Shown here piece after piece: positions 1-14,365 of a DNA stretch of 14,468 bases. The notes under the pieces are model-generated. The model did no database searches and was not told where the DNA came from. It was given only the letters and a program-made list of their open reading frames with translations. Each line of letters begins with the position of its first letter. The first letter of the stretch is position 1. Source of the DNA: Candidatus Micrarchaeia archaeon (GTDB lineage: Archaea > Micrarchaeota > Micrarchaeia > Micrarchaeales > CABMGC01); contig JBMFUT010000017.1 of NCBI GenBank assembly GCA_049966395.1, positions 1 to 14,468 of the forward strand. The letters run 5' to 3'. A program made the translations under genes and the position numbers.

Positions 1-176
1 GCGCCGTTGTTGTTGGAGAACTCAAAGTTTGCAATGCTGCCATTGTACGCGGTATAGTTCTGATAATTTGATTTCGAGAACCGGGCCATCTGCTGAAACA
101 GTGCTGGCGTTGCGGATGATTGCGAATTAGCCAGCGAAATGGGCACGGGCTCATACGAAAGTGCAGCGCCCGAAGC
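1..176 (-). CDS. 5' portion of a DUF2341-like/surface-protein-domain gene running off the left edge; start uncertain (GTG at 146 or ATG at 89); possibly a 5'-truncated remnant
   Basis: Manual translation of the - strand after an in-frame TAA (179-177) gives ASGAALSYEPVPISLANSQSSATPALFQQMARFSKSNYQNYTAYNGSIANFEFSNNNG..., open to the edge. This resembles the 'YVPITITNxQxxATPxPFQQMI...NxEF...NG' motif I recall from secreted proteins of acidophilic archaea. It is not in the ORF track. Confidence 0.55.
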
Positions 177-265
177 TTAGCAATAGCCTTAAATACTGTA
201 CTGCAAAATATATTTCATGCCATAGCCTTCTTTGCTATGCATTTAATGTTTGTCGTGTGTTTTTC

Positions 266-3200
266 ATGTCTTTGTTGCTTGTGGTAATAGAGGCGTTCCT
301 AGCCATCATGATACCAGGAGTGCTGCTCTCTTTCGCCCTACTTAAGAAAACAAGCCTTCCAACTTTCGAGATAGTCGTAATAGGATTCATATTCGGCCTT
401 ATATTTCCCCCGGCAGCGGTGTGGCTCGAATCCTATTTGATACCGTACATCCATGCATTCTCTTTTTCGGCAGCGCTCTACAATGCGAACGTCATTATGC
501 TTACTATAATAGGGTTTGCGCTGTGCCTGCAGCAGCGCGTCTTCACGCTTAACGACATATCAAATTACATCTTCGGAGCGAAGCCTCATCGGGAAGAGGC
601 GAGGATAGAAGAATTCGGCGAAAGGATAGCAAAGCTGCGCAAGGAGATAAGGTCTTACAACATTGATCTGCATATTGTTAATGAGCATGAGCGCGAGGAG
701 AAGGAGCTCGCCGCCAGGCACAGCGAAGAGATGTCGATGCTAAAGTCAGTCTCCCCGGAGGAGCGGGCGCGCATATCTGCAATGCACGCCGAGGAAGAGC
801 GCAAGCTCATCGAAGAGCACGAGAAAGAGGAAAAATCACTTCTGGAAAGCACAGCCAAGCAGAAGAAAAGCGGCAACAGCACAATGTGGACAATTCTCTT
901 GCTGCTGATGCTTTTCTCTTTCGGCACAAGAATGCTTAGCATAGGCATAGCCCCCAGGTTCTTCGAGTTTGATCCTTATTTCGACATGATAAGCACCGAA
1001 TACATACTCACTTACGGCTACCAGCTGCTGTACGACCATTCAGCATGGCCGACTGTTGCAACTGGCACAGTGCACAGGATACAGCCAATAGTGCCGTATC
1101 TTGAAGCTTATTGGTACGATCTTGCCAGCGCAGGTCCTCACAGCGCGCTGAGTACCACGCTTCTGAGCGACGTGAGCAGCTTCTATCCTCCAATAACAGC
1201 AGCGCTTCTGGTCTTTGTAGTTTTCATGTTCATATACCACGAGTACGGCAGGTTCCCCGCCCTTGTTGGTGCCGCGCTTGCGACAGCAATGCCTGTGCTA
1301 ATAACAACTTTCATAGCAGGGGAGCAGCTGCTGGAGCCTTGGGGCATTTTCTCGATGTTCTTCTTCTACGCTGCATACCTGCTCGCCGTTAACAATCCAA
1401 AAGACAACAGGTTCGCAATACTTGCGGGTATAGCATTTGCCTCGACATTTCTAGGCGCCCACTACTACACCGTCAATGCCGGAGTGTTTGCAATATACAT
1501 AATATTCCAAGGCATAATACACGTGTTCAGGAGGGAAGAGACAAGGGACTTCTACAAGATGAACGCAATAGTGATAGCAGTATCTGCAGTGTTCTACGTA
1601 CTCTATGCGCCTTATGGTGCTACACTAACTGAGCGCATACCTAGCATGTTCCACATACCTATAATCATAGGTCTCCCTCTGTTCTCGCTGCTCTTCATAT
1701 TCATTTTCGAGAAGCTGCCGCATCTGCTCAAGAGCCGCAAGATGATAAAGGAGGTTAATTTCAGCACATACGCAGAATTCCTGATTCTGCTGTTAGTTAT
1801 AGTAGGCGTGCTGGCTGCCTTCACATCGTTTGGAGAGCCGCTGCGCGTTTACATATCGCTTAGCGAGCACTTTACCACGCCGTCGATACCGCTTTTCATG
1901 ACTGTGCAAGAGTACGCTCCAACCGGAGCCAACTTCAATTTCGGTGCTGCTGGGCTTGGCCCAATAGCCAACAGTGTTGGCGGAATCGCAATAATAGTCT
2001 GGGCCGTAATGATTGTGTTTTTCATTTTGATGATTGCTGCAATATTCTACAGGAATTCTAAGGTAAGCATACTTGCAATTGCAATGGCTATACCTCTTGC
2101 AGTGGCAGCGATGAGCGAGGTCAAGTACCTGCCGCACTTCGGCGTCGCCTACATAATAATGCTTGCATTCATAATAGGCGAACTTGCAATATACGTCAGG
2201 AATGGCTACTCTTTTGGCAAGAAGCGCGAGATGCAAGAAAGCAGCACAAAAAGGGCGCTGCAGGCCATATTAGTCTTCGGCATCCTTCTGGTAATACTTG
2301 AATGGCTGGTGTTTGTCAATGTATTTTCCGCAATAGGCCAGAACTGCAATACAATAGCGACAAACTTCAATTCAATAGGCTACGACATGTACTGCAACGT
2401 AGTTCCAAATGCGTGGCTAAACGCAATGGCATGGGTCAAGGCAAACGTCGGCCCTTATGCGCCTAGAGTACTTTCATGGTGGGACTATGGAGACTGGATA
2501 AACTGGTTTGGCAACAGCAACGCGGTGCTGCGAGGCGACAACGCAGTTGCGACATTAGACTACAAGACGGCCGCAATATACGTGCTCGGATCCGCAGACG
2601 GCTACAATGCTTCTGTGCTGGCGCACTATATGAACAGCATACAGACAAAATACGTGATATTCGACAACGAGCTGCAGCAGAAGTGGTCTGCATTAGACTT
2701 CCTTGGTTGCGTTGCTGTAAACGAGACAAGCAAGGCCGCGGCTGTAGCTGCAGGCAAGCAGTACGGCCAGCCTTACATGCTCGGGACCTCGCAGTGCGAG
2801 CTCTCCCACGATCCAGTATACGCGCTGCTGCCAGCTTCTATCAACAATGTCAACGCCTACTGCCAGTTCTCAAATTCTTCTTTCACAGCTGTAAAAGTCC
2901 TGCTGCTTGCGGGCAATACCTTCTTGAATGAAACCTACTGCGTGTCTTCGCAGATATACACATCGACAGCGCCAGAGCCACTATACACCGCTAATGGCAC
3001 AAAGATAAACGCAATTATAATACCTAATGGCCAGTTCTACTATGGCCAGCTAAGCGTGAGCGGCCAGAACTTCATAGACTTCATGGTACTCTACACGCCA
3101 AACGGTCCTAACGATTCAATAACCGACGCTCCGACGGAATTCTACCAATCTACATATTACAAAGGATTCTTCTTCGGCAAGCTACCTGATTTCACGCTCG

Positions 3201-3346
3201 TCTACCCGACAAACTTTACTGGAATGAACTACGTAAACACCACTGCCGCGGTAATGATATATGCTCTTGACAATTATACCGGAGGTCTGCCTCCAGTCAC
3301 TCCAAAGCCGCCTTGGGTTAACAACAATTACACAATGCCAGGCTGA
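266..3346 (+). CDS. aglB: Oligosaccharyltransferase AglB (STT3 family) with N-terminal TM plus charged coiled-coil extension
   Basis: WWDYG motif (VLSWWDYGDWI), EFDPYF (first catalytic Asp), TVQE (TIXE-like), RGDN and DNELQQKW (DK-like motif), many TM segments and an Asn/Thr-rich extracellular C-terminus. The start is moved from 161 to ATG 266 (MSLLLVV), which follows a TTTAAT box at 242-247. Confidence 0.93.
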   Translation: MSLLLVVIEAFLAIMIPGVLLSFALLKKTSLPTFEIVVIGFIFGLIFPPAAVWLESYLIPYIHAFSFSAALYNANVIMLTIIGFALCLQQRVFTLNDISNYIFGAKPHREEARIEEFGERIAKLRKEIRSYNIDLHIVNEHEREEKELAARHSEEMSMLKSVSPEERARISAMHAEEERKLIEEHEKEEKSLLESTAKQKKSGNSTMWTILLLLMLFSFGTRMLSIGIAPRFFEFDPYFDMISTEYILTYGYQLLYDHSAWPTVATGTVHRIQPIVPYLEAYWYDLASAGPHSALSTTLLSDVSSFYPPITAALLVFVVFMFIYHEYGRFPALVGAALATAMPVLITTFIAGEQLLEPWGIFSMFFFYAAYLLAVNNPKDNRFAILAGIAFASTFLGAHYYTVNAGVFAIYIIFQGIIHVFRREETRDFYKMNAIVIAVSAVFYVLYAPYGATLTERIPSMFHIPIIIGLPLFSLLFIFIFEKLPHLLKSRKMIKEVNFSTYAEFLILLLVIVGVLAAFTSFGEPLRVYISLSEHFTTPSIPLFMTVQEYAPTGANFNFGAAGLGPIANSVGGIAIIVWAVMIVFFILMIAAIFYRNSKVSILAIAMAIPLAVAAMSEVKYLPHFGVAYIIMLAFIIGELAIYVRNGYSFGKKREMQESSTKRALQAILVFGILLVILEWLVFVNVFSAIGQNCNTIATNFNSIGYDMYCNVVPNAWLNAMAWVKANVGPYAPRVLSWWDYGDWINWFGNSNAVLRGDNAVATLDYKTAAIYVLGSADGYNASVLAHYMNSIQTKYVIFDNELQQKWSALDFLGCVAVNETSKAAAVAAGKQYGQPYMLGTSQCELSHDPVYALLPASINNVNAYCQFSNSSFTAVKVLLLAGNTFLNETYCVSSQIYTSTAPEPLYTANGTKINAIIIPNGQFYYGQLSVSGQNFIDFMVLYTPNGPNDSITDAPTEFYQSTYYKGFFFGKLPDFTLVYPTNFTGMNYVNTTAAVMIYALDNYTGGLPPVTPKPPWVNNNYTMPG

Positions 3347-3350
3347 CTAG

Positions 3351-4490
3351 ATGAAAATGATCGTAGCGCAGCCCTATCTCAATCTGATGGGTGGCGCGGA
3401 AAAGGTGGTGCTGAACATAGCCCAGCACTACGATGCTAAGATATACACCCTAGAGTACAAACCGTCAACAACTTTCGAGGGCTTCAGAAATCTCGATGTC
3501 GAAATAATAGGGAAGAAGATCCCGCTGTCGGAGCACTTGCCTTACAGGGCTTCCCAAGGCCTTAACTACGGCTTCAACTTCTACAATCTCAAAGTGAAAG
3601 AAGACTACGATTTGATAAACGCGCACATATCCCCAAGCGAATGGATAAGGCACAAGAACGAGAGGGTGCTGTGGTACTGCCACACGCCGCCGCGAGAGGT
3701 TTACGACCTTTATGCAACAAGGATGAAAAACAGGTCTTACAAGCAGAAAGTGCTCTATGCAGTGCTTGCAAGCAGCTACAGGTTTGTGGCATCCAACATA
3801 GTGAAGCAGATAGAAGGGATAGCCACAAACAGCGAGAACACAAGAAGCAGAATAATGAAGAACTTCTCTCGTAACGCCGCAGTAATAAATCCCGGAGTAG
3901 ACTACAAAGAGTTTTACAACAAAGGGGCTGAGAAGTTTTTTCTCTATCCTTCAAGGATAATACCCAACAAGCGCCAGGATTTCGCAATAGACGCATTCGC
4001 AAAGTTTGTGAGAAAGAGCGGCCTCAAAAACTACAAGCTCATAATAGCGGGGGCGCTGTCAAAGGACAAGGAGCACCAGCAGTATTTCGAAAAGCTGAAG
4101 TCGAAGAATGTGCCTGGAGTAGCATTCAAGGTTAATGTGGGAGAAAAAGAACTACATAATCTGATGTCAAGGTGCACGGCTGTGCTTTTTGCTGCAATAA
4201 ACGAGGATTTCGGCTATGTGCCTGTAGAAGCGATGGCCAGCTCAAAGCCAGTAATTTCAATCGCAGAAGGCGGGCCTAGCGAAACTGTAGTGAATGGGAA
4301 GACAGGCTATCTTGTAAATTCTCCAGAAGAAATGGCGGACAAGATGCAGTACGTTGTTGAGCATCCAGACGTAGCCGAGCAGATGGGTGCAGAGGGGAGA
4401 AAAAGAGTAATTGAAAAATACTCCTGGGAATCCTTTTTCAGGAAGTTCGACAGGCTTGCAACAAAAGTGGCCAAAGGAGGCAGTTTCTAG
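3351..4490 (+). CDS. Glycosyltransferase family 4 (GT-B, RfaB-like)
   Basis: N-terminal GGAEKV, YCHTPPR, SRIIPNKRQ and EDFGYVPVEAMASSKPVI (E-x7-E signature), GGPSETVVNGKTGYLV. It starts 4 nt after the aglB stop, so probably the same operon. Confidence 0.93.
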   Translation: MKMIVAQPYLNLMGGAEKVVLNIAQHYDAKIYTLEYKPSTTFEGFRNLDVEIIGKKIPLSEHLPYRASQGLNYGFNFYNLKVKEDYDLINAHISPSEWIRHKNERVLWYCHTPPREVYDLYATRMKNRSYKQKVLYAVLASSYRFVASNIVKQIEGIATNSENTRSRIMKNFSRNAAVINPGVDYKEFYNKGAEKFFLYPSRIIPNKRQDFAIDAFAKFVRKSGLKNYKLIIAGALSKDKEHQQYFEKLKSKNVPGVAFKVNVGEKELHNLMSRCTAVLFAAINEDFGYVPVEAMASSKPVISIAEGGPSETVVNGKTGYLVNSPEEMADKMQYVVEHPDVAEQMGAEGRKRVIEKYSWESFFRKFDRLATKVAKGGSF

Positions 4491-4820
4491 CTAAGAACTT
4501 ATTATGAATTTTGATATTACCTTTGTTGCATACTCCAGCACTTTCTTTATCGCTGCCTGGGTGTTAGAACCAGTGCATATGAGCTTGCCATTCTTGAAAA
4601 GTATTATTACCGCCTTAGGGTCCTTTATCCTGAAAATAGCACCAGGGAACTGTTCAGGCTCGTAGTCTACCTCCTTTACGTTTTTTGAGAGGGTGAACAG
4701 GTCTATCGTCGCATGGAGGTCTGCGCTGACGACTATATTCTGTATCTTTATGGGAGGCTTCATGTTAAGCTCTCTCTTCTGACCTTGTTCTTGTGCAGCC
4801 ATGGGTACACCTTGCGCCAT
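4491..4820 (-). CDS. tbp: TATA-box-binding-protein family protein with only ONE TBP repeat (half-TBP); alternative starts at 4802 or 4763
   Basis: IKIQNIVVSADL...IDL...YEPEQFPGAIFRIKDPKAVIILFKNGKLICTG is one complete TBP repeat. The protein is 109 aa, whereas canonical archaeal TBP is about 180-190 aa with two repeats. Confidence 0.88.
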   Translation of the reverse strand: MAQGVPMAAQEQGQKRELNMKPPIKIQNIVVSADLHATIDLFTLSKNVKEVDYEPEQFPGAIFRIKDPKAVIILFKNGKLICTGSNTQAAIKKVLEYATKVISKFIISS

Positions 4821-4878
4821 TCCGGCATTGCCAAATTTGGCGCTGTGCCGTCAGGCATTAGAAATATGGCAACAAAGG

Positions 4879-4887
4879 TTTATATAT
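4879..4887 (-). promoter_or_regulatory. Putative TATA box for the half-TBP gene
   Basis: ATATATAAA on the - strand in the 102-nt gap between the malic enzyme stop and the TBP ORF. Confidence 0.55.
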
Positions 4888-4922: not shown

Positions 4923-6221
4923 CTATTGCTTTTGCAACTGCCTTGCCGCAAGCTTCTCCATCTTTGCCACTTTTTTTATCATCGCAGTGGCGTTCGAACG
5001 CATGGCCTTTTCGTCGAGTTCCTTCAGCCTGGAATTGCCGCTTCGCACGGCGCTCCTTGCAATGGCAACTGAAACCTTGGTGAGCACTTTCAATGTTTCC
5101 CTCATGCTATACGGCGTTGGCAATATGTGCTCAACTCCCAGTTCCGCGCCTGTCGCTTTTGCCAGTGCCTTTGCGCCTTCCAGAAGCATTTCGTAGTCGA
5201 CTTTTGTAGCCCTTGCATCAAGAAGCCCTCTCATTATGCTTGGAAATCCCAGGACGTTATTTACCTGATTGGGGAAGTCTGATCTTCCGGTGGCAACTAT
5301 GAAAGCGCCTGCCCTTTTCGCATCATCATATGAGATTTCTGGCACAGGATTCGCTAACGCAAAGACTATGGGCTTGTCGTTCATGCCTTTTATTACCTCT
5401 TCAGTGAACGCTCCTGCTTCCGATACCCCTATCAGGACGTCAGCCCCCTTTGCTGCATCCTTGAGCGAGCCGCTGATCTTTTCTTTGTTTGTGCTTCTGG
5501 CTATTTCCTGCTTGAATTCGTTCATGCCCTCTTGCCTTCCTTCGTAAATTATGCCAGTCCTGTCTACCAAATAAAGTCTTTTTGCTCCTGCCGCGAGCAG
5601 CATCTGCGCTATGCCCAAACCTGCAGCGCCCGCGCCGTTTATCACTATCTTAGAGTCCTCCAGCCTCTTCCCAGAAAGCTTGAGAGCATTCATGAGCCCC
5701 GCGGTGACAACCATAGCCGTGCCATGTCTGTCGTCATGCAGCACCGGTATCTCGAGCATTTTAGAAAGCCTGTCTACTATTCTGAAGCATTTTGGAGATT
5801 CAATATCCTCTATGTTGAATGCGCCGAAAACGGGCTCTATGGCCTTTGCAACTTTGACTATAGACTCTTCATCCTGGAAGCTCAGGCATATTGGGACAGC
5901 GTCAACGCCTCCATACTTCTTGAAGAGCAGGGCCTTGCCCTCCATAACAGGCAAAGCCGCCTCTGGTCCAACGTTTCCTAGGCCAAGCACCCTGCTTCCG
6001 TCTGTTATTATTGCTATGTTGTTAGACTTGCCGGTGTATGTAAAGACCTTAGACTTGTCGGTGCTTATTTCTTTCGAAGCAACCGCTACTCCAGGCGTGT
6101 AGTGTATAGAAAGATCTTCCCTGTTGCTGATCGAAACTTTAGGCGCAATCTCTATCTTGCCCTTTGTCGCGGCGAAAATTTCCAATACTTCATTGTCGCT
6201 CTTCATGAAATCACTCAGCAT
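4923..6221 (-). CDS. mae: NAD(P)-dependent malic enzyme (small prokaryotic type, no PTA domain); start may be ATG 6206
   Basis: YTPGVA, TDGSRVLGLGNVGPEAALPVMEGKALLFK, IEDI, HDDRHGTA, Rossmann GAGAAG, FALANPVPEI and ATGRSDFPNQVNNVLGFP. Confidence 0.95.
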   Translation of the reverse strand: MLSDFMKSDNEVLEIFAATKGKIEIAPKVSISNREDLSIHYTPGVAVASKEISTDKSKVFTYTGKSNNIAIITDGSRVLGLGNVGPEAALPVMEGKALLFKKYGGVDAVPICLSFQDEESIVKVAKAIEPVFGAFNIEDIESPKCFRIVDRLSKMLEIPVLHDDRHGTAMVVTAGLMNALKLSGKRLEDSKIVINGAGAAGLGIAQMLLAAGAKRLYLVDRTGIIYEGRQEGMNEFKQEIARSTNKEKISGSLKDAAKGADVLIGVSEAGAFTEEVIKGMNDKPIVFALANPVPEISYDDAKRAGAFIVATGRSDFPNQVNNVLGFPSIMRGLLDARATKVDYEMLLEGAKALAKATGAELGVEHILPTPYSMRETLKVLTKVSVAIARSAVRSGNSRLKELDEKAMRSNATAMIKKVAKMEKLAARQLQKQ

Positions 6222-6332: not shown

Positions 6333-6581
6333 TGTGCACCAAGACCAAATTCCAGGTATGATATTGTTAAATAGGCATTCTTCGGGATTCGCAATACCTT
6401 CATGCCTCCTTTTGGCATTCGGGAGCGCAACTTTTACATTCTCGCACTCATGGCAACGTTAATAATAAAAATCTATCCTGTATATAATAATATCAAGTTA
6501 CGGGGATAGTAGGATTGCAAATTGTCACTTCGGTATTTCTGGCTAATTGCTTTCTATTGGTGTAATCAAAAAGGTGAGAAT

Positions 6582-8228
6582 ATGGCTGAAAATCAATTGG
6601 GAGGGCAACCTTACCTTGTGTTGCCTGAAGGAGCTACAAGACTTCTAGGTAGAGAAGCGCAAAGGACAAACATAGCAGTTGCATACGCAGTTGCAAGCGC
6701 AATAAAGACAACACTAGGCCCAAAAGGAATGGACAAAATGCTGGTAAGCGAGCTTGGCGACATAGTCATAACCAACGACGGCGCAACAATCCTCGAAGAA
6801 ATGAACGTGGAGCACCCTATTGCAAAGATAATGGTAGACATAGCAAAGACCCAGGACAAGGAAGTTGGCGACGGCACAACAACCGCAGTGATACTCGCAG
6901 GGGAACTGCTCAAATCAGCTAGCAATCTCATAGAGCAGGGCATACATCCCACAACAATAGTAAGAGGTTACAAGATGGCCGCCAGTAAGGCTAGTGAAAT
7001 ACTTCAGGCGTCCTCTTACAAAGTCACCATAGACGACGAGGACAAGCTTGAGAAGATAGCCCTCATATCTATGGGCTCCAAGAACATAGGCGACGACAAA
7101 ACAAAGAGACAGCTCGCAAAACTGGCGATAGCGGCAATAAAGCAAGTGAGCGTGGTGGCAGATGGCAAGCTGACAATAGACCACGATTTCATAAAACTGG
7201 AGAAGAAGGAAGGAGGCAGCATCGACGAGACAGAGTTTATAAACGGCGTGCTCGTAGACAAGGAAGTGGCGCACCCAGGAATGCCAAAGTCAATAAAGAA
7301 CGCGAAGATAGCGCTGCTTGACGTGGCGCTCGAAATAGAAAAGACGGAAACCGACGCCAGGATAGAAATAACCTCGCCAGAGCAGATGCAAGCGTTCCTT
7401 AGCCAGGAAGAAAAGATGTTAAAAGACATGGTGGACAAGATAGCCAAGAGCGGAGCAAACGCAATATTTGTACAGAAGGGAATAGACGACGTCGCGCAGC
7501 ACTACCTTGCAAAGGCGGGCATAATGGCTGTAAGGCGTGTAAAGAAGAGCGACATGGAGAAGCTCTCAAAGGCGACAGGCGCAAGGCTTGTCACAAGCCT
7601 GGATGATCTCGGCGCTGAAGACATAGGCTTCGCGGGACTTGTAGAAGAGCGCAAGGTTTCTGGCGAGCAGATGGTGTTCGTGGAGAAGTGCAAGGACCCT
7701 AAGAGCGTTACAATATTCATAAGGGGCAGCACGCAGCAGGTCGTAAACGAGGTAGAAAGGGCCTTGAATGACGTCATTGGCGCGCTCTCGAGCACTGTAG
7801 AAGAGCAGAAGTACGTGATCGGCGGTGGCAGCATAGAAGTTGATGTAGCCAATGCGCTGAGGAGCTACTCAAGCGACGTCGGCGGCCGCGAGCAGTTGGC
7901 AATACAAGCATTTGCAGACGCCATAGAGATAGTGCCAAAGACGCTGGCAGAAAGCGCCGGAATGGATCCTATAGACACCCTAGTGCAGCTCAGGAGCAAG
8001 CACAAGAGCAAGGACGGCAAGGCATACGGCGTTGACGTATACAGGAACCAGACCAGCGACATGGAGAAACTCGGCGTGATAGAGCCCCTGAAGGTCAAGG
8101 AGCAGGCGATAGCGAGCGCGAGCGAAGCCAGCGAAATAATATTGAGAATAGATGACATGATAAGCTCCAAGGGCAAGGCGCCATCGTCTTCAATGCCGCC
8201 GGGAGGCGCTCCTGGCGAGATGGAGTGA
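6582..8228 (+). CDS. ths: Thermosome (group II chaperonin) subunit
   Basis: [37 protein letters not shown] and a Gly/Pro/Met C-tail. The start is reassigned from 6522 to ATG 6582 ([10 protein letters not shown]), which follows the SD AGGTGA at 6572-6577. Confidence 0.97.
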
Positions 8229-8230
8229 TC

Positions 8231-8265
8231 CCTTCCTTTCTTTTATTTTTTATTCTTTTTGCTTT
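8231..8265 (+). terminator. Oligo-T archaeal terminator region after the thermosome gene
   Basis: CCTTCCTTTCTTTTATTTTTTATTCTTTTTGCTTT lies directly after the TGA. Confidence 0.55.
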
Positions 8266-8327
8266 GCATTAGGTTTTTTTATATTTGCTAGTGCTAAAAT
8301 ATACTGGCGCAAGCCGAAATTGATTAG

Positions 8328-8903
8328 ATGCCAAAGATTGTTCTCGTGATAGGCACCCCCGGTGCAGGAAAAACCACAATAATGAACGGGGTTACTGAAA
8401 GCAAGAGCATCAAAAGCTACAAAGTAGTCAACATGGGCACCGAAATGCTCAAGAGGATAAACAAGCACATGGAGCGCGACAGCATAAGGAGCAAGCTAAG
8501 CAGCGCCGAGATAATGAAAATCCGAGCAGGAGTCCTGGAAAGCATAAACCGCATGAAGGGAAACATAGCAATAGACACACACGCTTCGGTGAAGACGGCA
8601 AACAAAATAATACCAGGATTCTCTTTTGCCGAGCTGGCAAAGCTCGACAAGGTAGTTTCAATACTTTACATAGATGCGCCAGCGCGAGAAATATACGCCA
8701 GGCGCCTCAATGACAACTCTAGGAAGCGGGAGAGGGAGAGTCTATCAGAGATAAAGTTGCACCAAGAAATAAATTTCTCCTTCGCAATAGCGTATTCCGC
8801 CGCGCTCAATGTGCCTATTTACATACTTGAAAACAGGCAGGACATGGTGAGCAAGGCAATAAAGGAAGCTAGCGACATACTAAAGACATCTTTCGGTGAG
8901 TAA
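8328..8903 (+). CDS. adkA: Archaeal adenylate kinase
   Basis: P-loop GTPGAGKTT, VVNMG, the DTH motif and RRLNDNSRKRE. It sits in the conserved context upstream of DUF106-L34e-cmk-L14e. Confidence 0.9.
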   Translation: MPKIVLVIGTPGAGKTTIMNGVTESKSIKSYKVVNMGTEMLKRINKHMERDSIRSKLSSAEIMKIRAGVLESINRMKGNIAIDTHASVKTANKIIPGFSFAELAKLDKVVSILYIDAPAREIYARRLNDNSRKRERESLSEIKLHQEINFSFAIAYSAALNVPIYILENRQDMVSKAIKEASDILKTSFGE

Positions 8904-9378
8904 TTTGTCAGCTGTAGGCATAGAAATATTTGCAGCAAGCATAATATACGTGGCAGTTTCAGTGTTCCTTCAGCGCAAGCTTTCAGACATGAAGAAAGTG
9001 TACGCCATACAGGAGGAGACAAAAATAAAATCGAAGGAACTTAACGACCTTGCCAAGGCAAACGCCAGCAAGGAGGAAATGATGAAAAAGCAGCAGGAGC
9101 TAATGGCTCTTGTCCAGCAGAGCATGAGAGCCCAGATAAAGCCCATGCTTGTAATACTGCCATTGTTCTTTGTAGTGTACTACGTACTTCTGCCTTATGC
9201 ATTTGCCGGCCAGCAATTCGTGTTCTACTTGATGGGCATGAAGCTCGGCTACAAGCTCTTTTTCATATTCGTGGCTTTCGTGCTGGGCTTCGCGTCTTCA
9301 ATAGCCTTCATGATCTATGACAGGATGAAAATAGCAAAGGAGCGGCAGAAGGAAGCCGCTGCGCAGCAGGTGCAGTAG
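8896..9378 (+). CDS. DUF106 / EMC3-TMCO1 (Oxa1 superfamily) membrane protein
   Basis: Architecture of one TM, a cytoplasmic coiled coil (KQQELMALVQQSMRAQIKPML), then two TMs. It lies between adkA and rpl34e, with a GTG start overlapping the adkA end. Confidence 0.85.
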   Translation: MSNLSAVGIEIFAASIIYVAVSVFLQRKLSDMKKVYAIQEETKIKSKELNDLAKANASKEEMMKKQQELMALVQQSMRAQIKPMLVILPLFFVVYYVLLPYAFAGQQFVFYLMGMKLGYKLFFIFVAFVLGFASSIAFMIYDRMKIAKERQKEAAAQQVQ

Positions 9379-9427
9379 ATTTTTATATGCGATGCCAGTA
9401 TAAATTCATACTTATAAGGGTGTTTTA

Positions 9428-9754
9428 TTGCCAAAACCAATGCACAGGTCAAGGAGCTTCAGGAGGCTCGACAAGGTGACTCCTAAGAAGCGCCACGTGA
9501 TACACTACAAAAGAAAGGCGTCGTCTCTGCCGCACTGCGCAATATGTGGCAAGGAGCTCAACGGCATACCAGGAAGGAACAAGCTCGAAGGAAAGTCGCT
9601 TAGGACCAACTCGAGGATATTTGGGGGCGTGCTGTGCGCCAGCTGCGCATCGCGCGTCATAAAGCTTGCCAGTAGAGTGGAGAACGGCGAACTGAGACTC
9701 ACAGACATAAGCGTAAGGGACAAGGAATACGTTTTGCAGATGGTATCCCACTGA
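9428..9754 (+). CDS. rpl34e: 50S ribosomal protein L34e
   Basis: MPKPMHRSRSFRR..VTP, CAICG.ELNG and RIFGGVLCASC. TTG start after a GGGTG SD-like sequence. Confidence 0.93.
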   Translation: MPKPMHRSRSFRRLDKVTPKKRHVIHYKRKASSLPHCAICGKELNGIPGRNKLEGKSLRTNSRIFGGVLCASCASRVIKLASRVENGELRLTDISVRDKEYVLQMVSH

Positions 9755-9764
9755 AGATGTTCAC

Positions 9765-10328
9765 ATGCTCTCGATAATAATATCAGGCATGCCTGCGGTA
9801 GGAAAAACGACGGCCGCGAACCTGCTCGCGCAGGAACTGGGCTTGAAGGTTATTGGAGGCGGGGACATACTGAAAGAGATGGCACGCGATAGGGGTTACG
9901 ATCCGAAGGACGAAACGTGGTGGGACACAGACGAAGGCATAAGCTTCCTGAGGGAACGCGAAGTCAATCCCGAATTCGACAAAGAAGCAGACAGGAGGCT
10001 TCTGCAAAAGATAAAGCAGGGCAACGTCATTGTCACGAGCTACACCGCCCCTTGGATATCAAAGGTGGGCTTCAAGGTTTGGCTTGACGGGAGCCTGGAA
10101 AAGCGCACTGAAAGAATGGCAAAGAGAGACAACATAAGCCTAGAAGAATGCAGGGCGAAGATAATAGTAAGAGACAAGGAAAACTACGAACTTTACAAAA
10201 GGCACTACGGCATAGAGTTCGGCACAGACAAAAAGCCTTTCGACATGGTTATAAACACAGACAACCTCACAGCAAGGCAAGTGGCCGATGCGATACTTGA
10301 AAAGATGAAAGAAACTGGAATATGGTGA
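9765..10328 (+). CDS. cmk: Archaeal cytidylate kinase
   Basis: ISGMPAVGKTT P-loop, GGDILKEMA, FDKEAD, KVWL, RMAKRD and YGI..D...FDMVINT. It lies between rpl34e and rpl14e. Confidence 0.9.
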   Translation: MLSIIISGMPAVGKTTAANLLAQELGLKVIGGGDILKEMARDRGYDPKDETWWDTDEGISFLREREVNPEFDKEADRRLLQKIKQGNVIVTSYTAPWISKVGFKVWLDGSLEKRTERMAKRDNISLEECRAKIIVRDKENYELYKRHYGIEFGTDKKPFDMVINTDNLTARQVADAILEKMKETGIW

Positions 10329-10332
10329 TTTT

Positions 10333-10551
10333 TTGGCACTGGTAGAAATAGGAAGAATATGCGTAAAAAAATACGGAAGGGATGCAGGCAGCAAGGCGGT
10401 AATCACTAAGGTGATAGACAAGAATTTTGTCAATGTTATAACTTCCGAAAGGAAGAAGGAACGCAGGTGCAACATAAGGCATCTTGAGCTGCTTGACCAG
10501 AAGATAGATATAAAAGACAAGGCCGCCGTTGACAAAGTGCTAAAAGAATGA
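10333..10551 (+). CDS. rpl14e: 50S ribosomal protein L14e
   Basis: EIGRICVKKYGRDAGSKAVITKVIDKNFV...RRCNIRHLE (KOW motif). TTG start after GGTGA. Confidence 0.95.
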   Translation: MALVEIGRICVKKYGRDAGSKAVITKVIDKNFVNVITSERKKERRCNIRHLELLDQKIDIKDKAAVDKVLKE

Positions 10552-10590
10552 GCGTAAATACCGACAAGGGCAACACATAAATTACTTGTT

Positions 10591-11922
10591 GTGGTATTGT
10601 TATTCGTGGCTAAAATAAAAATAGGGAAGAAAGCGCTCGGCGTAATAGGCAGAGACAAAAAGGTAATGCTCACTACTACCAGGGAATCCTATCCTTTCGT
10701 TGCAGATCGCGGAGACGGGGATTTCGTCTACGACATAGAGGGCAACAAATTCATAGACTTCTCTAGCTTCATAGCAGTTTACGACCTCGGGGTCAATGCC
10801 AATTCCTATGTCAGATCTGCCATAAAAAGTCAGGTTGACAGACTGATGCATTCTGCATTTACCGATTACTATTCAGAGATGCCTGTTCGCTTTGCGGAGC
10901 GGCTTATCAAGATGTTTCCGAAGGGCTTTGGCAGGGTTTTCTTCTCCAACTCCGGCACAGAGGCTAACGAAGCCGCCCTTAAATTTTCAAAAGTTTTCAC
11001 AAAGAGGCAATATTCAATCGCTTTCTACAACGCTTTCCATGGCAGGACAATGGGCTCCCTTGGGCTTACGGCTTCCAAGAGCGTTCAGCGGGAAGGCTTT
11101 GGGCCGTTCAATTCTACAATACACGTGCCATTTGCATATTGCTACAGGTGCCCTTTCAAGCAGGAGTACCCTTCATGCGGCCTTGCCTGCGTCGATTACA
11201 TCAAGAAATACCCGCTTGGAAAGGAGGTTTCGCCAAGCGAGGTTTCGGCGATTTTCATAGAACCTATACAAGGAGAGGGCGGCTACATAGTGCCTCCTAA
11301 GGATTTCTTCAAGGAGATAAGGAAAATAGCAAGCGACAATGGCATCCTTCTTGTTGACGACGAAGTACAAGCAGGGTATATGAGGACAGGCAAGTTTCTT
11401 GCCTTAGACAACTTCGGAGTAGAAGCCGATATATACACAATGGCGAAGGCACTTGGCGGCGGGCTTCCAATAGGCGCTACAATAACAAGAAAGTCGCTGG
11501 GCGACATACCTTCTGGTTCGCATGCAAATACCTTCGGCGGCAACCTCGTTTCGATAGCCGCAGCAAACGCCTCTTTGGAATACATGATGGCTAACGAGTC
11601 CAGGATAAGAAATGCCGTTCGTTCAAACGGCGCCTACATAATGAAGAGGCTAAACAAGATGAAGGATGATTACGAGATAGTCGGAGATGTAAGGGGAATA
11701 GGAATGATGATTGGCATTGAAATAGTCAAGGACAAGAAATCCAAGGATTACGGAATAGAGGAAAGGGAAAAGATACTCAACAATTCCTTCTACAACGGTC
11801 TGCTCCTTTTGCCAGCGGGCGCGTCATCGATAAGGATAATTCCTCCTCTTACCATAAAGAAAAGCAGCCTAGAGGCAGGGATGGACATACTGGAAGACTC
11901 CATAAGAAACGCTAACAAGTGA
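10591..11922 (+). CDS. Class III PLP-dependent aminotransferase (acetylornithine/4-aminobutyrate aminotransferase family); start may be GTG 10606
   Basis: DIEGNKFIDF, FSNSGTEANEAALK, FHGRTMG, EPIQGEGGY, DEVQAGYMRTG, MAKALGGGLPIGA (PLP lysine), HANTFGGN and DVRGIGMMIG. The substrate cannot be assigned from sequence. Confidence 0.93.
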   Translation: MVLLFVAKIKIGKKALGVIGRDKKVMLTTTRESYPFVADRGDGDFVYDIEGNKFIDFSSFIAVYDLGVNANSYVRSAIKSQVDRLMHSAFTDYYSEMPVRFAERLIKMFPKGFGRVFFSNSGTEANEAALKFSKVFTKRQYSIAFYNAFHGRTMGSLGLTASKSVQREGFGPFNSTIHVPFAYCYRCPFKQEYPSCGLACVDYIKKYPLGKEVSPSEVSAIFIEPIQGEGGYIVPPKDFFKEIRKIASDNGILLVDDEVQAGYMRTGKFLALDNFGVEADIYTMAKALGGGLPIGATITRKSLGDIPSGSHANTFGGNLVSIAAANASLEYMMANESRIRNAVRSNGAYIMKRLNKMKDDYEIVGDVRGIGMMIGIEIVKDKKSKDYGIEEREKILNNSFYNGLLLLPAGASSIRIIPPLTIKKSSLEAGMDILEDSIRNANK

Positions 11923-11926
11923 TTTT

Positions 11927-12085
11927 TTGGTTTCATATGACGGGAAATACTACATGTGCGACATATGCAAGCTGCACTATGCCAAGAAGGAAGATGCGGA
12001 AATGTGCGAGAAATGGTGCTCCACGCACAACGCGTGCAACCTTGAAATAACCAGGCGTTCAATAGAGAGAAGCGGACAACATTAA
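11927..12085 (+). CDS. 52-aa Cys/His-rich zinc-finger-like mini-protein (not in the ORF track)
   Basis: Manual translation gives MVSYDGKYYMCDICKLHYAKKEDAEMCEKWCSTHNACNLEITRRSIERSGQH*, with pattern CxxC-x12-CxxWCxxHxxC. The TTG start has the same GTGATTTTTTGG context as rpl14e, and the ORF fills the gap exactly up to the convergent pilin stop. Confidence 0.8.
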   Translation: MVSYDGKYYMCDICKLHYAKKEDAEMCEKWCSTHNACNLEITRRSIERSGQH

Positions 12086-12549
12086 TTTACCTTTGCCACT
12101 ATTTTTCCTGGGGCGGTCTGCTGGAAGCCTGTAATATCATCAGTGTAATTTATTTTTATGTTACCAGTGAAAAGAGTGCCGGGAGAGAGCGCAGTCGGAG
12201 AGCAAATAATACTCACGTAGCTGCCGCTCCCAGAAGCTACGTACACCTGGTTGGAAGGCGGATTGTAAGGTGGCTGCATGGTGATTACACCGCTTGCCTG
12301 TGCACACCCGACCGCTGTAATATTCATAGGATCCTGCATTGAGTTCACTATCTGCACTGAAAGGGTGCCGTTTGAGTACAAGAAAAAGTTGCTGCAAGAG
12401 AGGCCTGAAGGCAGAGTGCACGATGGAGTCACGAAGGCATTGGGACTGAAAACCCCGCTGGCTACAAGCGTCGCGAAGACTATGGCTATGATGAGTAGCG
12501 CCCAGCCATACGTCATGAGGTATTCCATTGCTGATTGTGCTCTCTCCAT
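12082..12549 (-). CDS. Type IV pilin-like protein with class III signal peptide
   Basis: MERA|QSAMEYLMTYGWALLIIAIVFATLVASGVF (basic residue, A|Q cleavage site, E at +5, hydrophobic helix), four Cys and N-x-S/T sequons (NGT, NIT, NYT). The start is reassigned from 12609 to ATG 12549. Confidence 0.88.
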   Translation of the reverse strand: MERAQSAMEYLMTYGWALLIIAIVFATLVASGVFSPNAFVTPSCTLPSGLSCSNFFLYSNGTLSVQIVNSMQDPMNITAVGCAQASGVITMQPPYNPPSNQVYVASGSGSYVSIICSPTALSPGTLFTGNIKINYTDDITGFQQTAPGKIVAKVN

Positions 12550-12644
12550 GTAACTGCAATAGCATTGCTGAAACAAAAGATATAAACTTTGTCGTGAAAT
12601 TAGCATCAATGATCTATTCGTTGAGAGTGGCGCTGATAAAGCGG

Positions 12645-12896
12645 ATGAAAATCACGCGCTTCCAAAAGAGCGTGCTCATTGCTGCTTCGCGCATACCTAT
12701 GGGAAAAACAATGACGTACAAGGAGCTTGCGGCAAGCATAGGCAAGCCTAGCGCGAGTAGGGCTGTAGGCGCCGCGCTGCACAGGAATCCGCTGCCAATA
12801 ATAATACCTTGCCACAGGGTCGTTGCCTCGAACGGCCCAGGCGGCTACTCTCTTGGCACCGCGACGAAAAAGCTTCTTCTTTTCTTCAAGCTCTAG
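12645..12896 (+). CDS. ogt: Minimal O6-methylguanine-DNA methyltransferase (MGMT/Ogt C-terminal domain only); alternative start 12609
   Basis: FQKSV...IPMGKTMTYKELA..IGKPSASRAVG.AL.RNPLPIIIPCHRVV...GGY, including the active-site PCHRV. Confidence 0.88.
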   Translation: MKITRFQKSVLIAASRIPMGKTMTYKELAASIGKPSASRAVGAALHRNPLPIIIPCHRVVASNGPGGYSLGTATKKLLLFFKL

Positions 12897-13227
12897 CTGC
12901 AACAGAGTAAACTCCCCTGCTGACTCCTATGCGCGCCTGCACGACGCTCCTGACAGTTGCGATGCCAGATCTCGTGAGCTCCAAAGGCCTATACTGCTCC
13001 CCTTTCTCTGCGAAATCAACCATGCCTTTTTGCTTAAGCTTCTTAAGCGTGTACCAGACGCCGCTCCTCGAGAAGCCATACTTATCTGACACGTAGTCTA
13101 CAAATGCTGTAGCGGAAGTTATGTGATCAAGGCCTATTTCTGACACAAGTATTTCTTCCTTTTGAGAGCACTGCTGCCGCTGTCTCTCTTTCTTGATTTC
13201 TAATAAGTGTTGTTTTATTGCATGCAT
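12886..13227 (-). CDS. Winged helix-turn-helix DNA-binding protein (putative transcription regulator)
   Basis: Helix-turn-helix/wing pattern VSDKYGFSRSGVWYTLKKLKQKGMVDF...LELTRSG. SD AAGGTG lies 5 nt before the ATG. Confidence 0.7.
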   Translation of the reverse strand: MHAIKQHLLEIKKERQRQQCSQKEEILVSEIGLDHITSATAFVDYVSDKYGFSRSGVWYTLKKLKQKGMVDFAEKGEQYRPLELTRSGIATVRSVVQARIGVSRGVYSVAARA

Positions 13228-13354
13228 AAAAGCACCTTAAAAAAGAGTTAAAGACCGCTTTTATGCAGCAACGAGCACAAATGTGCTATAATTGCTTGTG
13301 CAGCTGCAGCTAGCCCTAATTGGCATATCCCACTTTATTGTGTGCTGCTGCATA
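13223..13354 (-). promoter_or_regulatory. Structured 5' leader with overlapping, mutually exclusive inverted repeats (attenuator-like)
   Basis: An 11-bp perfect IR at 13223-13233/13257-13267 contains the wHTH ATG. A 9+5-bp IR (13262-13270 and 13275-13279 with 13341-13354) shares the 13262-13267 segment. Confidence 0.5.
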
Positions 13355-13371
13355 CCGCAATCATCCTGCAT
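13261..13371 (-). CDS. Putative leader peptide/uORF (36 aa from ATG 13371, or 30 aa from ATG 13353) upstream of the wHTH gene
   Basis: MQDDCGMQQHTIKWDMPIRASCSCTSNYSTFVLVAA*. An SD-like GGATGAT lies 6 nt before ATG 13353, and the ORF sits between a BRE/TATA and the wHTH start. Confidence 0.4.
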   Translation of the reverse strand: MQDDCGMQQHTIKWDMPIRASCSCTSNYSTFVLVAA

Positions 13372-13413
13372 TGGCTTAGAAAAGCCTCTATGTATTATTC
13401 TTGTATCTGGTAA

Positions 13414-13430
13414 CCTTTTTAAATCTTTTC
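13414..13430 (-). promoter_or_regulatory. Putative BRE + TATA promoter for the leader/wHTH transcript
   Basis: The - strand reads GAAAAGA-TTTAAAAAGG, a purine-rich BRE directly followed by TTTAAAAA. Confidence 0.55.
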
Positions 13431-13466
13431 TGCAAATTCGTTAATCATTCATGTGTTTTGGCGCCA

Positions 13467-13482
13467 GAAAAGCATATTATAA
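13467..13482 (+). promoter_or_regulatory. Putative BRE + TATA promoter for the prepilin peptidase (leaderless mRNA)
   Basis: GAAAAGCATATTATAA ends 22 nt before ATG 13505. Confidence 0.5.
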
Positions 13483-13504
13483 TTGACACCCAATATCTGT
13501 TTGC

Positions 13505-14365
13505 ATGTACCTTTACGCTTTAAGGATAATCTTGCTGCTGTCAATAGCCTCGCTCTACGCTATATACGATGTGTACAACAAGCGCAATGTGCCTGAAGTT
13601 TTCGTGTATTCGTGCTTTGCCATAGGCATCGCGCTGACGCTTACTCTAGCACCAAGCGTTGCCGTGTTGAGCATACTAATTGCAGTGGCGATCCTTGCAA
13701 TAGGATACCTACTTTACAAAGCCGGCCAGCTTGGCCTGGGTGACAGTTTCGAATTTGCGACAATCTCCCTAATACTGCCAATACAGCAGTCAGCGCTGCT
13801 TTCTAGCAACAACCAATTCGGAATGCCCTTCATAGTGTCGGTATTTATAGCAACCGGAATAGCCACCTTGATCTCAGTGCCAATATACTACCTGCTTTTT
13901 GCGGGAAACGCCTCCGGCTATAAGGATTCAAAGATCAATGCTGCAAGCATAATAAAGGGCCTGGCATTGCTGCTGGCATACATTACGCTTTTCTTTTTCA
14001 TAACATTTTTCTTCGGCTTCAGGGTCGTATCTCTTGTGTTGATACTGGTTCTTGCAATTCCATCGGCAATTCTCGGAATATACGAGCAGCGCATAAACCT
14101 ACGGATGATAAATTTCGTTTATCCTAGCATGCTTGATGAGGGTGACATAATAGCCACCAACCTTATGAGCGATTCAGACATAAATTATTTCAAGAGGATT
14201 TCGAGCAATTTCGGCAAGCTCGCCACTAAGAACCTTATAGCCAAAATAAAAAATTCACGGAAGAAGCTGCCTGTATACAAGGCCGCAGTTCCTCTTGCCC
14301 TTTTTATCCTGATAGGCACTATAATATCAATCCTGTTTGGCGACGTTCTGCTCTTCCTGCTTTAG
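13505..14365 (+). CDS. A24-family prepilin/preflagellin peptidase (PibD/FlaK/EppA-like)
   Basis: First catalytic Asp in YAIYDVYNKRNVP, GxGD motif LGLGD, multiple TMs and C-terminal 'LDEGD...VYKAAVPLALFILIG'. Confidence 0.88.
   Translation: MYLYALRIILLLSIASLYAIYDVYNKRNVPEVFVYSCFAIGIALTLTLAPSVAVLSILIAVAILAIGYLLYKAGQLGLGDSFEFATISLILPIQQSALLSSNNQFGMPFIVSVFIATGIATLISVPIYYLLFAGNASGYKDSKINAASIIKGLALLLAYITLFFFITFFFGFRVVSLVLILVLAIPSAILGIYEQRINLRMINFVYPSMLDEGDIIATNLMSDSDINYFKRISSNFGKLATKNLIAKIKNSRKKLPVYKAAVPLALFILIGTIISILFGDVLLFLL

What the first reader, a model, noticed from the sequence alone, without database searches (positions are those of the whole stretch)
4491..4820. Stand-alone half-size TBP: one repeat with intact DNA-binding residues
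Seen: the ORF encodes exactly one TBP repeat. There is no room for a second, because its stop abuts the convergent GT4 stop (4490/4491) and only 102 nt with an in-frame TGA separate it from mae. It retains the NIV strand, both intercalating Phe equivalents (EQF, ILF), the acidic YEPEQFPG stirrup and GKLICTG. It mixes features I associate with repeat 2 (QNIV, YEPEQ) and repeat 1 (ICTG), and it has its own TATA box. Known: TBP is a pseudo-symmetric two-repeat saddle thought to derive from a single-repeat homodimer; single TBP-like domains are otherwise mostly known as parts of other proteins or as divergent forms. Inference: it could homodimerise into a symmetric TBP binding TFB on either side (suited to divergent promoters), pair with a second half as a split TBP, or act as a TFB-titrating regulator.
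Basis: partly seen in the sequence, partly recalled or inferred. Interest (0 to 1): 0.85.

Follow-up and report, generated by a model that had tools for sequence, protein, structure and literature searches.

The report
Second half-size TATA-binding protein paralogue
This gene encodes only one of the two repeats of the TATA-binding protein; its group of tiny archaea appears to lack the normal two-repeat protein and to assemble it from half-size chains, which makes the proposed origin of this core transcription factor by duplication and fusion testable in living lineages.

Summary
Confirmed: 4491-4820(-) encodes one intact TBP repeat, probably starting at 4802 (103 aa). The genome (89% complete) showed no two-repeat TBP but has a second single-repeat gene ('A') at the ancestral rpl21e locus; this ORF is paralogue 'B'. 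Single-repeat TBP is the rule in this order (named Micrarchaeales/Micrarchaeota by database labels). Of 64 family genomes examined, 32 have A+B, 30 A only (two of them single-contig) and 2 B only, so A must work as a homodimer. B is under purifying selection (median dN/dS 0.09), keeps the DNA- and TFB-facing residues, and is predicted to form a B2 saddle (0.47 vs control 0.01; may reflect likeness to solved TBP). A-B pairing was not modelled; sequence hints favour it slightly. Trees place A and B as sisters in a Micrarchaeota+Iainarchaeota clade, with several recent tandem re-fusions, including A-A genes with 84-89% repeat identity. So this is most likely a secondary half-TBP replaying TBP's origin, not a relic, though AU tests did not reject a split origin. 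Not found in print in nine searches; this scan noted it before on other genomes.

The parts
4491..4820 (-). tbpB: single-repeat TBP, class B; likely start ATG 4802 (103 aa); domain residues 24-105 of the 109-aa ORF
4808..4812 (-). AGGTG, Shine-Dalgarno-like, 5 nt before ATG 4802 (inferred; archaeal SD consensus recalled)
4879..4886 (-). TATA-like element (TATATAAA on -, TTTATATA on +), candidate tbpB promoter; not above chance alone
   Evidence: a looser motif lies within 200 nt upstream of 29 of 34 and 20 of 20 class B loci, no null computed
3351..4490 (+). GT4 glycosyltransferase; conserved convergent neighbour of class B (43 of 54 loci); marks the locus, no functional link shown
4923..6221 (-). 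malic enzyme; lies between tbpB and the thermosome gene only in this genome among the loci held (context, not part of the system)
6522..8228 (+). thermosome subunit; divergent upstream neighbour of class B in many family relatives (context)

Best explanation
The ORF is tbpB, the second of two single-repeat TBP paralogues in an order that lacks two-repeat TBP. Two half-chains pair through antiparallel S1-S1' strands and helix H2 to rebuild the TBP saddle (predicted for B2). The saddle binds the TATA minor groove (inferred from conserved N28, V30, F58, F75 and others) and recruits the single canonical TFB through E54/E56 (inferred). Direction comes from TFB-BRE contacts (established for archaea). 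Paralogue A at the ancestral rpl21e locus is the housekeeping form and must homodimerise where it is alone. B is an accessory subunit that changes the DNA-facing surface (Q27, R64, V71, I73 versus A's E, K, A, L), so it should tune promoter affinity or asymmetry. Which dimer dominates is open; my split is A-B about 45%, B2 about 35%, both substantially about 20%. History (inferred): one lobe was kept in the Micrarchaeota/Iainarchaeota ancestor, A and B arose by duplication in the order's stem, B was lost at least twice, and tandem re-fusion happened several times.
For: Shown. (1) No two-repeat TBP was found in the own genome, only A and B. (2) 60 of 61 family genomes match PF00352; the only ORF with two full repeats is a canonical-type TBP on a 3.7-kb contig. 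(3) Single-contig genomes G032 and G017 have exactly one repeat even at E<=1. (4) Two A-only genomes keep the GT4 site without B. (5) In sister family f3, 72 of 74 genomes have 2 or more matches, and all 20 fetched pairs are A+B (picked from genomes with two listed matches). (6) Median dN/dS for B is 0.093 over 15 unsaturated of 561 pairs. (7) N28, V30, E54, F58, P59, I62 and F75 are invariant in all 146 single-repeat sequences. (8) A+B are sisters (100/98) inside a Micrarchaeota+Iainarchaeota clade (100/99; 99/92), and share 6 residues rare in both canonical repeats. (9) A-A fusions P0273-P0276 have 84-89% repeat identity; 3 of 80 metagenome loci carry them beside rpl21e, with 10-21 synonymous versus 3-5 amino-acid differences between repeats. 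Predicted: B2 scores ipSAE 0.47 versus best control 0.01. That mark was reached by 20 of 30 solved homodimers and 1 of 23 single chains; runs agree in at least 89% of contacts, pLDDT at least 86; interface residues 18-37 plus H2. The pass may come from likeness to solved two-repeat TBP.
Against: No expression, dimerisation or DNA-binding data. AU tests on 92 columns did not reject A+canonical R1 versus B+canonical R2 (p=0.068; p=0.27), nor a single fusion within the lineage on the first row set (p=0.25). A single fusion was rejected only after adding fusions picked for near-identical repeats (p=9e-7). NCBIfam models align B to their C-terminal half in 9 of 10 cases and A to the N-terminal half in 7 of 10, which fits a split origin as well as convergence. 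The sister phylum is mostly two-repeat (58 of 61 genomes with paired matches), so repeat homogenisation followed by repeated loss remains possible. The two-repeat Micrarchaeia clade has only SH-aLRT 87.6.
Confidence: 0.78

Rival explanations
1. Obligate split TBP: A and B are the separated N- and C-terminal repeats of a canonical TBP and act only as a heterodimer.
For: B carries canonical C-lobe residues (Q27, V71) where A carries N-lobe ones (2 columns for, 1 against). NCBIfam half preference. AU tests do not reject it. All 20 fetched f3 genomes have both. A has D/E at position 23 in 16 of 17 B-bearing genera and in 0 of 12 A-only genera by majority residue.
Against: 30 of 64 family genomes have A only, consistently by genus and with empty B sites, so a heterodimer is not obligate. 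A+B are sisters with shared derived residues. A-A fusions exist, and no A-B fusion was seen among 126 two-repeat hits. The position-23 pattern rests on only 1-2 independent pairs (sign test p=1), and f3 A has Thr there in 20 of 20.
Confidence: 0.08
2. B is a regulator that titrates TFB or poisons A dimers rather than a working promoter-binding subunit.
For: B is dispensable in 12 genera, the acidic stirrup is kept, and there is mostly one TFB gene per genome.
Against: DNA-facing positions are as conserved as in A, and B has Arg64 where canonical TBPs have Arg. B is retained in nearly all f3 genomes.
Confidence: 0.08
3. The single-repeat form is a primordial relic from before the TBP duplication.
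For: Single-repeat TBP occupies the deepest Micrarchaeia branches in the RNAP tree, and one Iainarchaeota genome has it at the same locus.
Against: The repeats nest among canonical C-terminal repeats in the wide tree (weak backbone) and carry the C-lobe YEPEQ stirrup. A relic would need the same duplication to arise independently in all other archaea and eukaryotes (inference).
Confidence: 0.04
4. Pseudogene, recent deletion or misassembly.
For: The genome is a 34-contig assembly, 89% complete.
Against: 114 of the 120 best homologues are single-repeat class B proteins of 90-142 aa. Synteny is conserved across two families, and dN/dS is about 0.1.
Confidence: 0.01

Closest known systems
Canonical archaeal TBP (PF00352 x2; NCBIfam PRK00394; PDB 1MP9, 2Z8U, 1AIS/1PCZ)
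   Same: Lobe fold, NIV strand, both Phe, FPG, and the acidic stirrup that binds TFB (PMC7221094 section 11).
   Different: One repeat per chain; 67-89 bits against cut-offs of 181-347; the saddle must be built in trans; two paralogous halves at unlinked loci.
Halobacterial TbpA (single TBP domain; PMC3597702, passages)
   Same: Stand-alone single lobe closely resembling TBP repeats.
   Different: TbpA is described as non-essential and very similar to full-length TBPs of the same species; here no full-length TBP was found in the genome or, apart from two canonical-type genes on small contigs, in the listed matches of the order.
Divergent monopartite TBP-domain proteins of Euryarchaea (e.g. P. 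furiosus NP_578195; PMC3597702, passages)
   Same: About 90-100 aa, one TBP domain.
   Different: Those are strongly diverged from TBP and coexist with it; this protein scores 86 bits on PF00352 and keeps the TBP DNA/TFB residues.
Two-repeat TBPs of other Micrarchaeia and of Iainarchaeota
   Same: Same repeat clade (FPGAI, FKNGK signatures) and same rpl21e locus as paralogue A (24 of 24 two-repeat Micrarchaeia loci, counted from the map).
   Different: Fused; repeat-to-repeat identity 44-71%, up to 89% in recent fusions, versus a median of 36% in 121 canonical representatives.

Membership tests
Canonical archaeal TBP | Two tandem PF00352 repeats in one chain | tested here: not met
   One repeat; no second in any frame
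Canonical archaeal TBP | Passes an NCBIfam PRK00394 cut-off | tested here: not met
   Best 88.8 bits versus cut-off 181
Canonical archaeal TBP | TBP lobe fold | tested here: met
Canonical archaeal TBP | Conserved DNA-facing Asn, Val, two Phe, Thr and the TFB-binding Glu pair | tested here: met
   residue roles from PMC7221094 sections 7 and 11 and from recall
Canonical archaeal TBP | Two-lobed saddle formed through S1-S1' | tested here: inconclusive
   Predicted in trans only (0.47 vs control 0.01; mark reached by 20 of 30 pairs and 1 of 23 singles), possibly from likeness to solved TBP
Canonical archaeal TBP | Binds and bends TATA DNA, recruits TFB, supports transcription | not testable with these tools
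   Needs biochemistry
TBP-domain superfamily (PF00352) | Score over the Pfam cut-off | tested here: met
   86.1 versus 22.9 bits
TbpA-type or divergent monopartite TBP-domain proteins | Accessory to a full-length TBP in the same genome | tested here: not met
   None found in the own genome (89% complete) or in single-contig relatives
Split gene (N-half plus C-half) | The halves descend from repeat 1 and repeat 2 respectively | tested here: inconclusive
   Best trees make A+B sisters; AU p=0.068 and 0.27 do not reject the split tree
Split gene (N-half plus C-half) | Both halves always required | tested here: not met
   30 of 64 family genomes are A-only

The most novel reading that the evidence does not exclude
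A whole DPANN lineage shed one TBP lobe and ran basal transcription on a perfectly symmetric homodimer, then replayed TBP's origin by two routes: repeated tandem re-fusion (caught at 84-89% repeat identity), and duplication into unlinked A and B chains. B re-evolved C-lobe residues so that an A-B heterodimer regains the N/C asymmetry of canonical TBP.
Probability: 0.5. Interest if true: 0.92.

Novelty: new variant of a known kind. Interest (0 to 1): 0.8.

Why it matters
TBP is described as a two-repeat, pseudo-symmetric protein derived from a single domain, and the known single-domain forms are accessory or divergent (PMC3597702, PMC7289017; passages). Here single-repeat chains appear to be the only TBP. 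That gives a natural series of homodimer, paralogue pair, fresh fusion and diverged fusion, in which one can test whether a symmetric TBP is sufficient, whether BRE-TFB alone sets direction, and what fusion or asymmetry adds. It also questions the use of repeat-to-repeat similarity as a measure of closeness to the ancestral TBP (PMC4910066, which assumes a single duplication), and it explains why several of these genes are annotated 'hypothetical protein'.

Tried and rejected
RNA runs: none was listed; no evidence either way. Size compensation between S1 positions -4 and +3 across lobes in 121 canonical TBPs: not supported (Fisher p=0.39), so the idea that B's I24/V31 versus A's F/A makes the chains self-sort is unproven. 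A's core interface residues do not differ between 32 sequences from B-bearing genomes and 31 from genomes without B. Genome-wide promoter profile: A-rich upstream and TATA-like core, no clear extra symmetry against Iainarchaeota loci; the motif was seeded, so the test is weak. The sigma-70 scan is not applicable to archaea and found no promoter. No A-B or B-B fusion was seen among 126 two-repeat hits; only 8000 candidates were scored. B does not track a second TFB gene. Two-repeat ORFs in G041 and G112 were treated as probable contamination: canonical type, 3.7- and 8.4-kb contigs, no rpl21e neighbour; this is not proven. The G018 partial repeat (32 of 32 codons identical, contig end) and a truncated G055 class B sequence were dropped from trees. 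One AU test (all R1 including canonical) did not finish. The first species tree included an antisense shadow frame; it was redone without it on 45 of 60 genomes. Literature: nine searches found no paper describing this. The supplements of PMC7221094 had no Micrarchaeota term in 4 searchable files; one file was unreadable. Subscription journals and preprint supplements are not covered.

Full report
OBSERVATION. The ORF at 4491-4820(-) gives 109 aa with a single PF00352 domain (86.1 bits). Its stop touches the convergent GT4 stop, and the frame is closed 10 codons upstream. The model folds as one TBP lobe. The likely start is ATG 4802 (103 aa). The TATA-like 8-mer at 4879-4886 is not above chance by itself (65 of 200 shuffles).

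OWN GENOME. G000 (693,655 bases, 34 contigs, 89% complete) has two PF00352 matches, both single-repeat: this one and a 106-aa gene on C5 that is 44% identical. The C5 gene lies divergent to rpl21e and near RpoF. One canonical TFB passes its NCBIfam cut-off.

DISTRIBUTION. 60 of 61 family genomes match, as do 147 of 151 order genomes (150 of 260 matches listed). I extracted repeats from fetched loci. They fall into class A (IENIVAS) and class B (IQNIVVS; this ORF), about 50% identical to each other. Of 64 family genomes examined, 32 have A+B, 30 have A only and 2 have B only (72% and 88% complete). Presence is largely consistent by genus: 17 genera with A+B and 12 with A only. Single-contig G032 and G017 hold one repeat even at E<=1. 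In G011 and G046 the GT4 site is intact but has no B. In sister family f3, 72 of 74 genomes have at least two matches, and the 20 pairs I fetched are all A+B. Among 35 genomes of other families of the class, 8 have one single-repeat gene, 25 have a two-repeat ORF, 1 has partial matches and 1 has none. In the phylum of G196 (Iainarchaeota by record titles), 58 of 61 have paired matches and one has a 90-aa single repeat at the rpl21e locus.

SYNTENY. A lies next to rpl21e in 55 of 63 f1 and 16 of 20 f3 loci. So do 6 of 9 other single-repeat genes and 24 of 24 two-repeat genes (counted from the map). A is therefore the orthologue of the normal TBP gene. B lies convergent with the GT4 gene in 43 of 54 loci.

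SELECTION AND RESIDUES. Median dN/dS is 0.093 for B in f1 (15 unsaturated of 561 pairs) and 0.083 for A (154 of 1953). N28, V30, E54, F58, P59, I62 and F75 are invariant across 146 single-repeat sequences; E56, K79, I81 and T83 are nearly so. By alignment to 1AIS, 1MP9 and 2Z8U, E54/E56 correspond to the C-lobe glutamates that contact TFB (PMC7221094, section 11); the DNA-contact roles of the other positions are partly recalled. B differs from A at Q27/E, V31/A, R64/K, V71/A, I73/L and I24/F.

DIMER. Two copies of B (residues 15-109) score 0.47 against a best control of 0.01. The mark was reached by 20 of 30 solved homodimers and 1 of 23 single chains; runs agree in at least 89% of contacts, with pLDDT at least 86. 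The interface is residues 18-37 plus H2, the place where the lobes meet in canonical TBP, so the pass may reflect likeness to solved structures. A-B was not modelled. Hints for A-B: B has C-lobe-like and A has N-lobe-like residues at two columns, with one column the other way; NCBIfam models prefer the C half for B (9 of 10) and the N half for A (7 of 10); A has an acidic residue 23 in 16 of 17 B-bearing genera and 0 of 12 A-only genera, near B's conserved H36 by the model's strand register, but on only 1-2 independent pairs, and f3 has Thr there. Hints for B2: the prediction, and an A interface core unchanged by the presence of B.

HISTORY. All Micrarchaeia and Iainarchaeota repeats form one clade apart from canonical R1 and R2 (99/92; 100/99), nested among canonical C-terminal repeats in a wide FastTree with a weak backbone. 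A+B are sisters (100/98; left unresolved). On the RNAP tree, single-repeat TBP occupies the deepest branch, the whole order and two further branches, while two-repeat forms sit in one nested clade (SH-aLRT 87.6). A-only genomes form two separate clades, so B was lost at least twice. Four proteins are in-frame A-A fusions with 84-89% repeat identity. Three metagenome contigs confirm them beside rpl21e with mostly synonymous differences between repeats; all three are cut by the contig end. Other fusions pair their own two repeats (P0280, P0291, P0154). Against this reading: AU tests did not reject a split origin (p=0.068, 0.27) or one early fusion on the first row set (p=0.25); rejection (p=9e-7) came only with fusions picked after seeing them. 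Gene conversion between repeats followed by loss of one cannot be excluded for the deep nodes.

MECHANISM. Shown: one lobe, no two-repeat TBP found, conservation, and an A-only state in single-contig genomes. Predicted: a B2 saddle. Inferred: TATA binding, TFB recruitment, and a tuning role for B. Established: archaeal PIC orientation depends on TFB-BRE (PMC7289017), so a symmetric TBP is compatible with directional transcription. Confidence is 0.78 that B is a working subunit of a dimeric TBP.

KNOWN SYSTEMS AND NOVELTY. It works like TBP but fails TBP membership on the two-repeat criterion. Known monopartite forms accompany a full TBP (PMC3597702). Papers seen: PMC3597702, PMC4910066, PMC12917281, PMC8407392, PMC7289017 as passages; PMC7221094 as abstract, passages, sections 7 and 11 and a supplement search; PMC13607799 and PMC13257274 as term searches with nothing relevant. 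Nine searches found no description of Micrarchaeota half-TBPs. [quoted passage not shown] This scan recorded the same system on other genomes; those notes are not independent evidence.

VERDICT. A real new variant of a known kind; interest 0.8.

Noticed in passing
window 4760-4858 (-): A 32-codon upstream ORF starts at ATG 4858, about where a start site would fall after the TATA-like element; its TGA overlaps the ATG of Met20 of the TBP ORF. May be chance.
   Followed up: no
window 4923-6221; G012:C5, G004:C11, G002:C22, G011:C20: In several relatives the malic enzyme gene lies within about 2 kb of the TFB gene; here it sits beside tbpB instead.
   Followed up: partly
L327, L328, L329; proteins P0273-P0276: Recent in-frame A-A tandem fusions at the rpl21e locus.
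   Followed up: yes
L085 (G018:C39:11027-11423): A partial repeat identical in 32 of 32 codons precedes class A at a contig end: a very recent duplication or an assembly artefact.
   Followed up: partly
Iainarchaeota genomes, e.g. G196:C1:420110-420310: Many carry a second, weak PF00352 match (21-32 bits) in ORFs of about 95 aa, possibly the divergent monopartite type.
   Followed up: no
G187 (93% complete, 9 contigs): No TBP repeat was found with Pfam or the class B profile.
   Followed up: partly
G025, G045, G059 (genus g26): No TFIIB-family match in 3 of 3 genomes at 87-94% completeness.
   Followed up: no
G051:C41 and C23, G007:C28: Clusters of TFIIB-like domains, including one ORF of 1035 aa, in genus g8.
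   Followed up: no
proteins P0037, P0207: Chimeras switching class at the shared YEPEQFPG stretch (B to A; canonical to Micrarchaeia type), probably misassemblies.
   Followed up: no
protein P0002: A three-repeat TBP (272 aa) with a duplicated first repeat, seen on one 1.6-kb contig.
   Followed up: no
window 161-3346, 6522-14365: Ordinary context: STT3/AglB-like gene (below cut-off), thermosome, kinases, EMC3-like, L34e, aminotransferase III, MGMT-like, A24 peptidase; 12082-12609 and 12886-13227 have no Pfam match.
   Followed up: no
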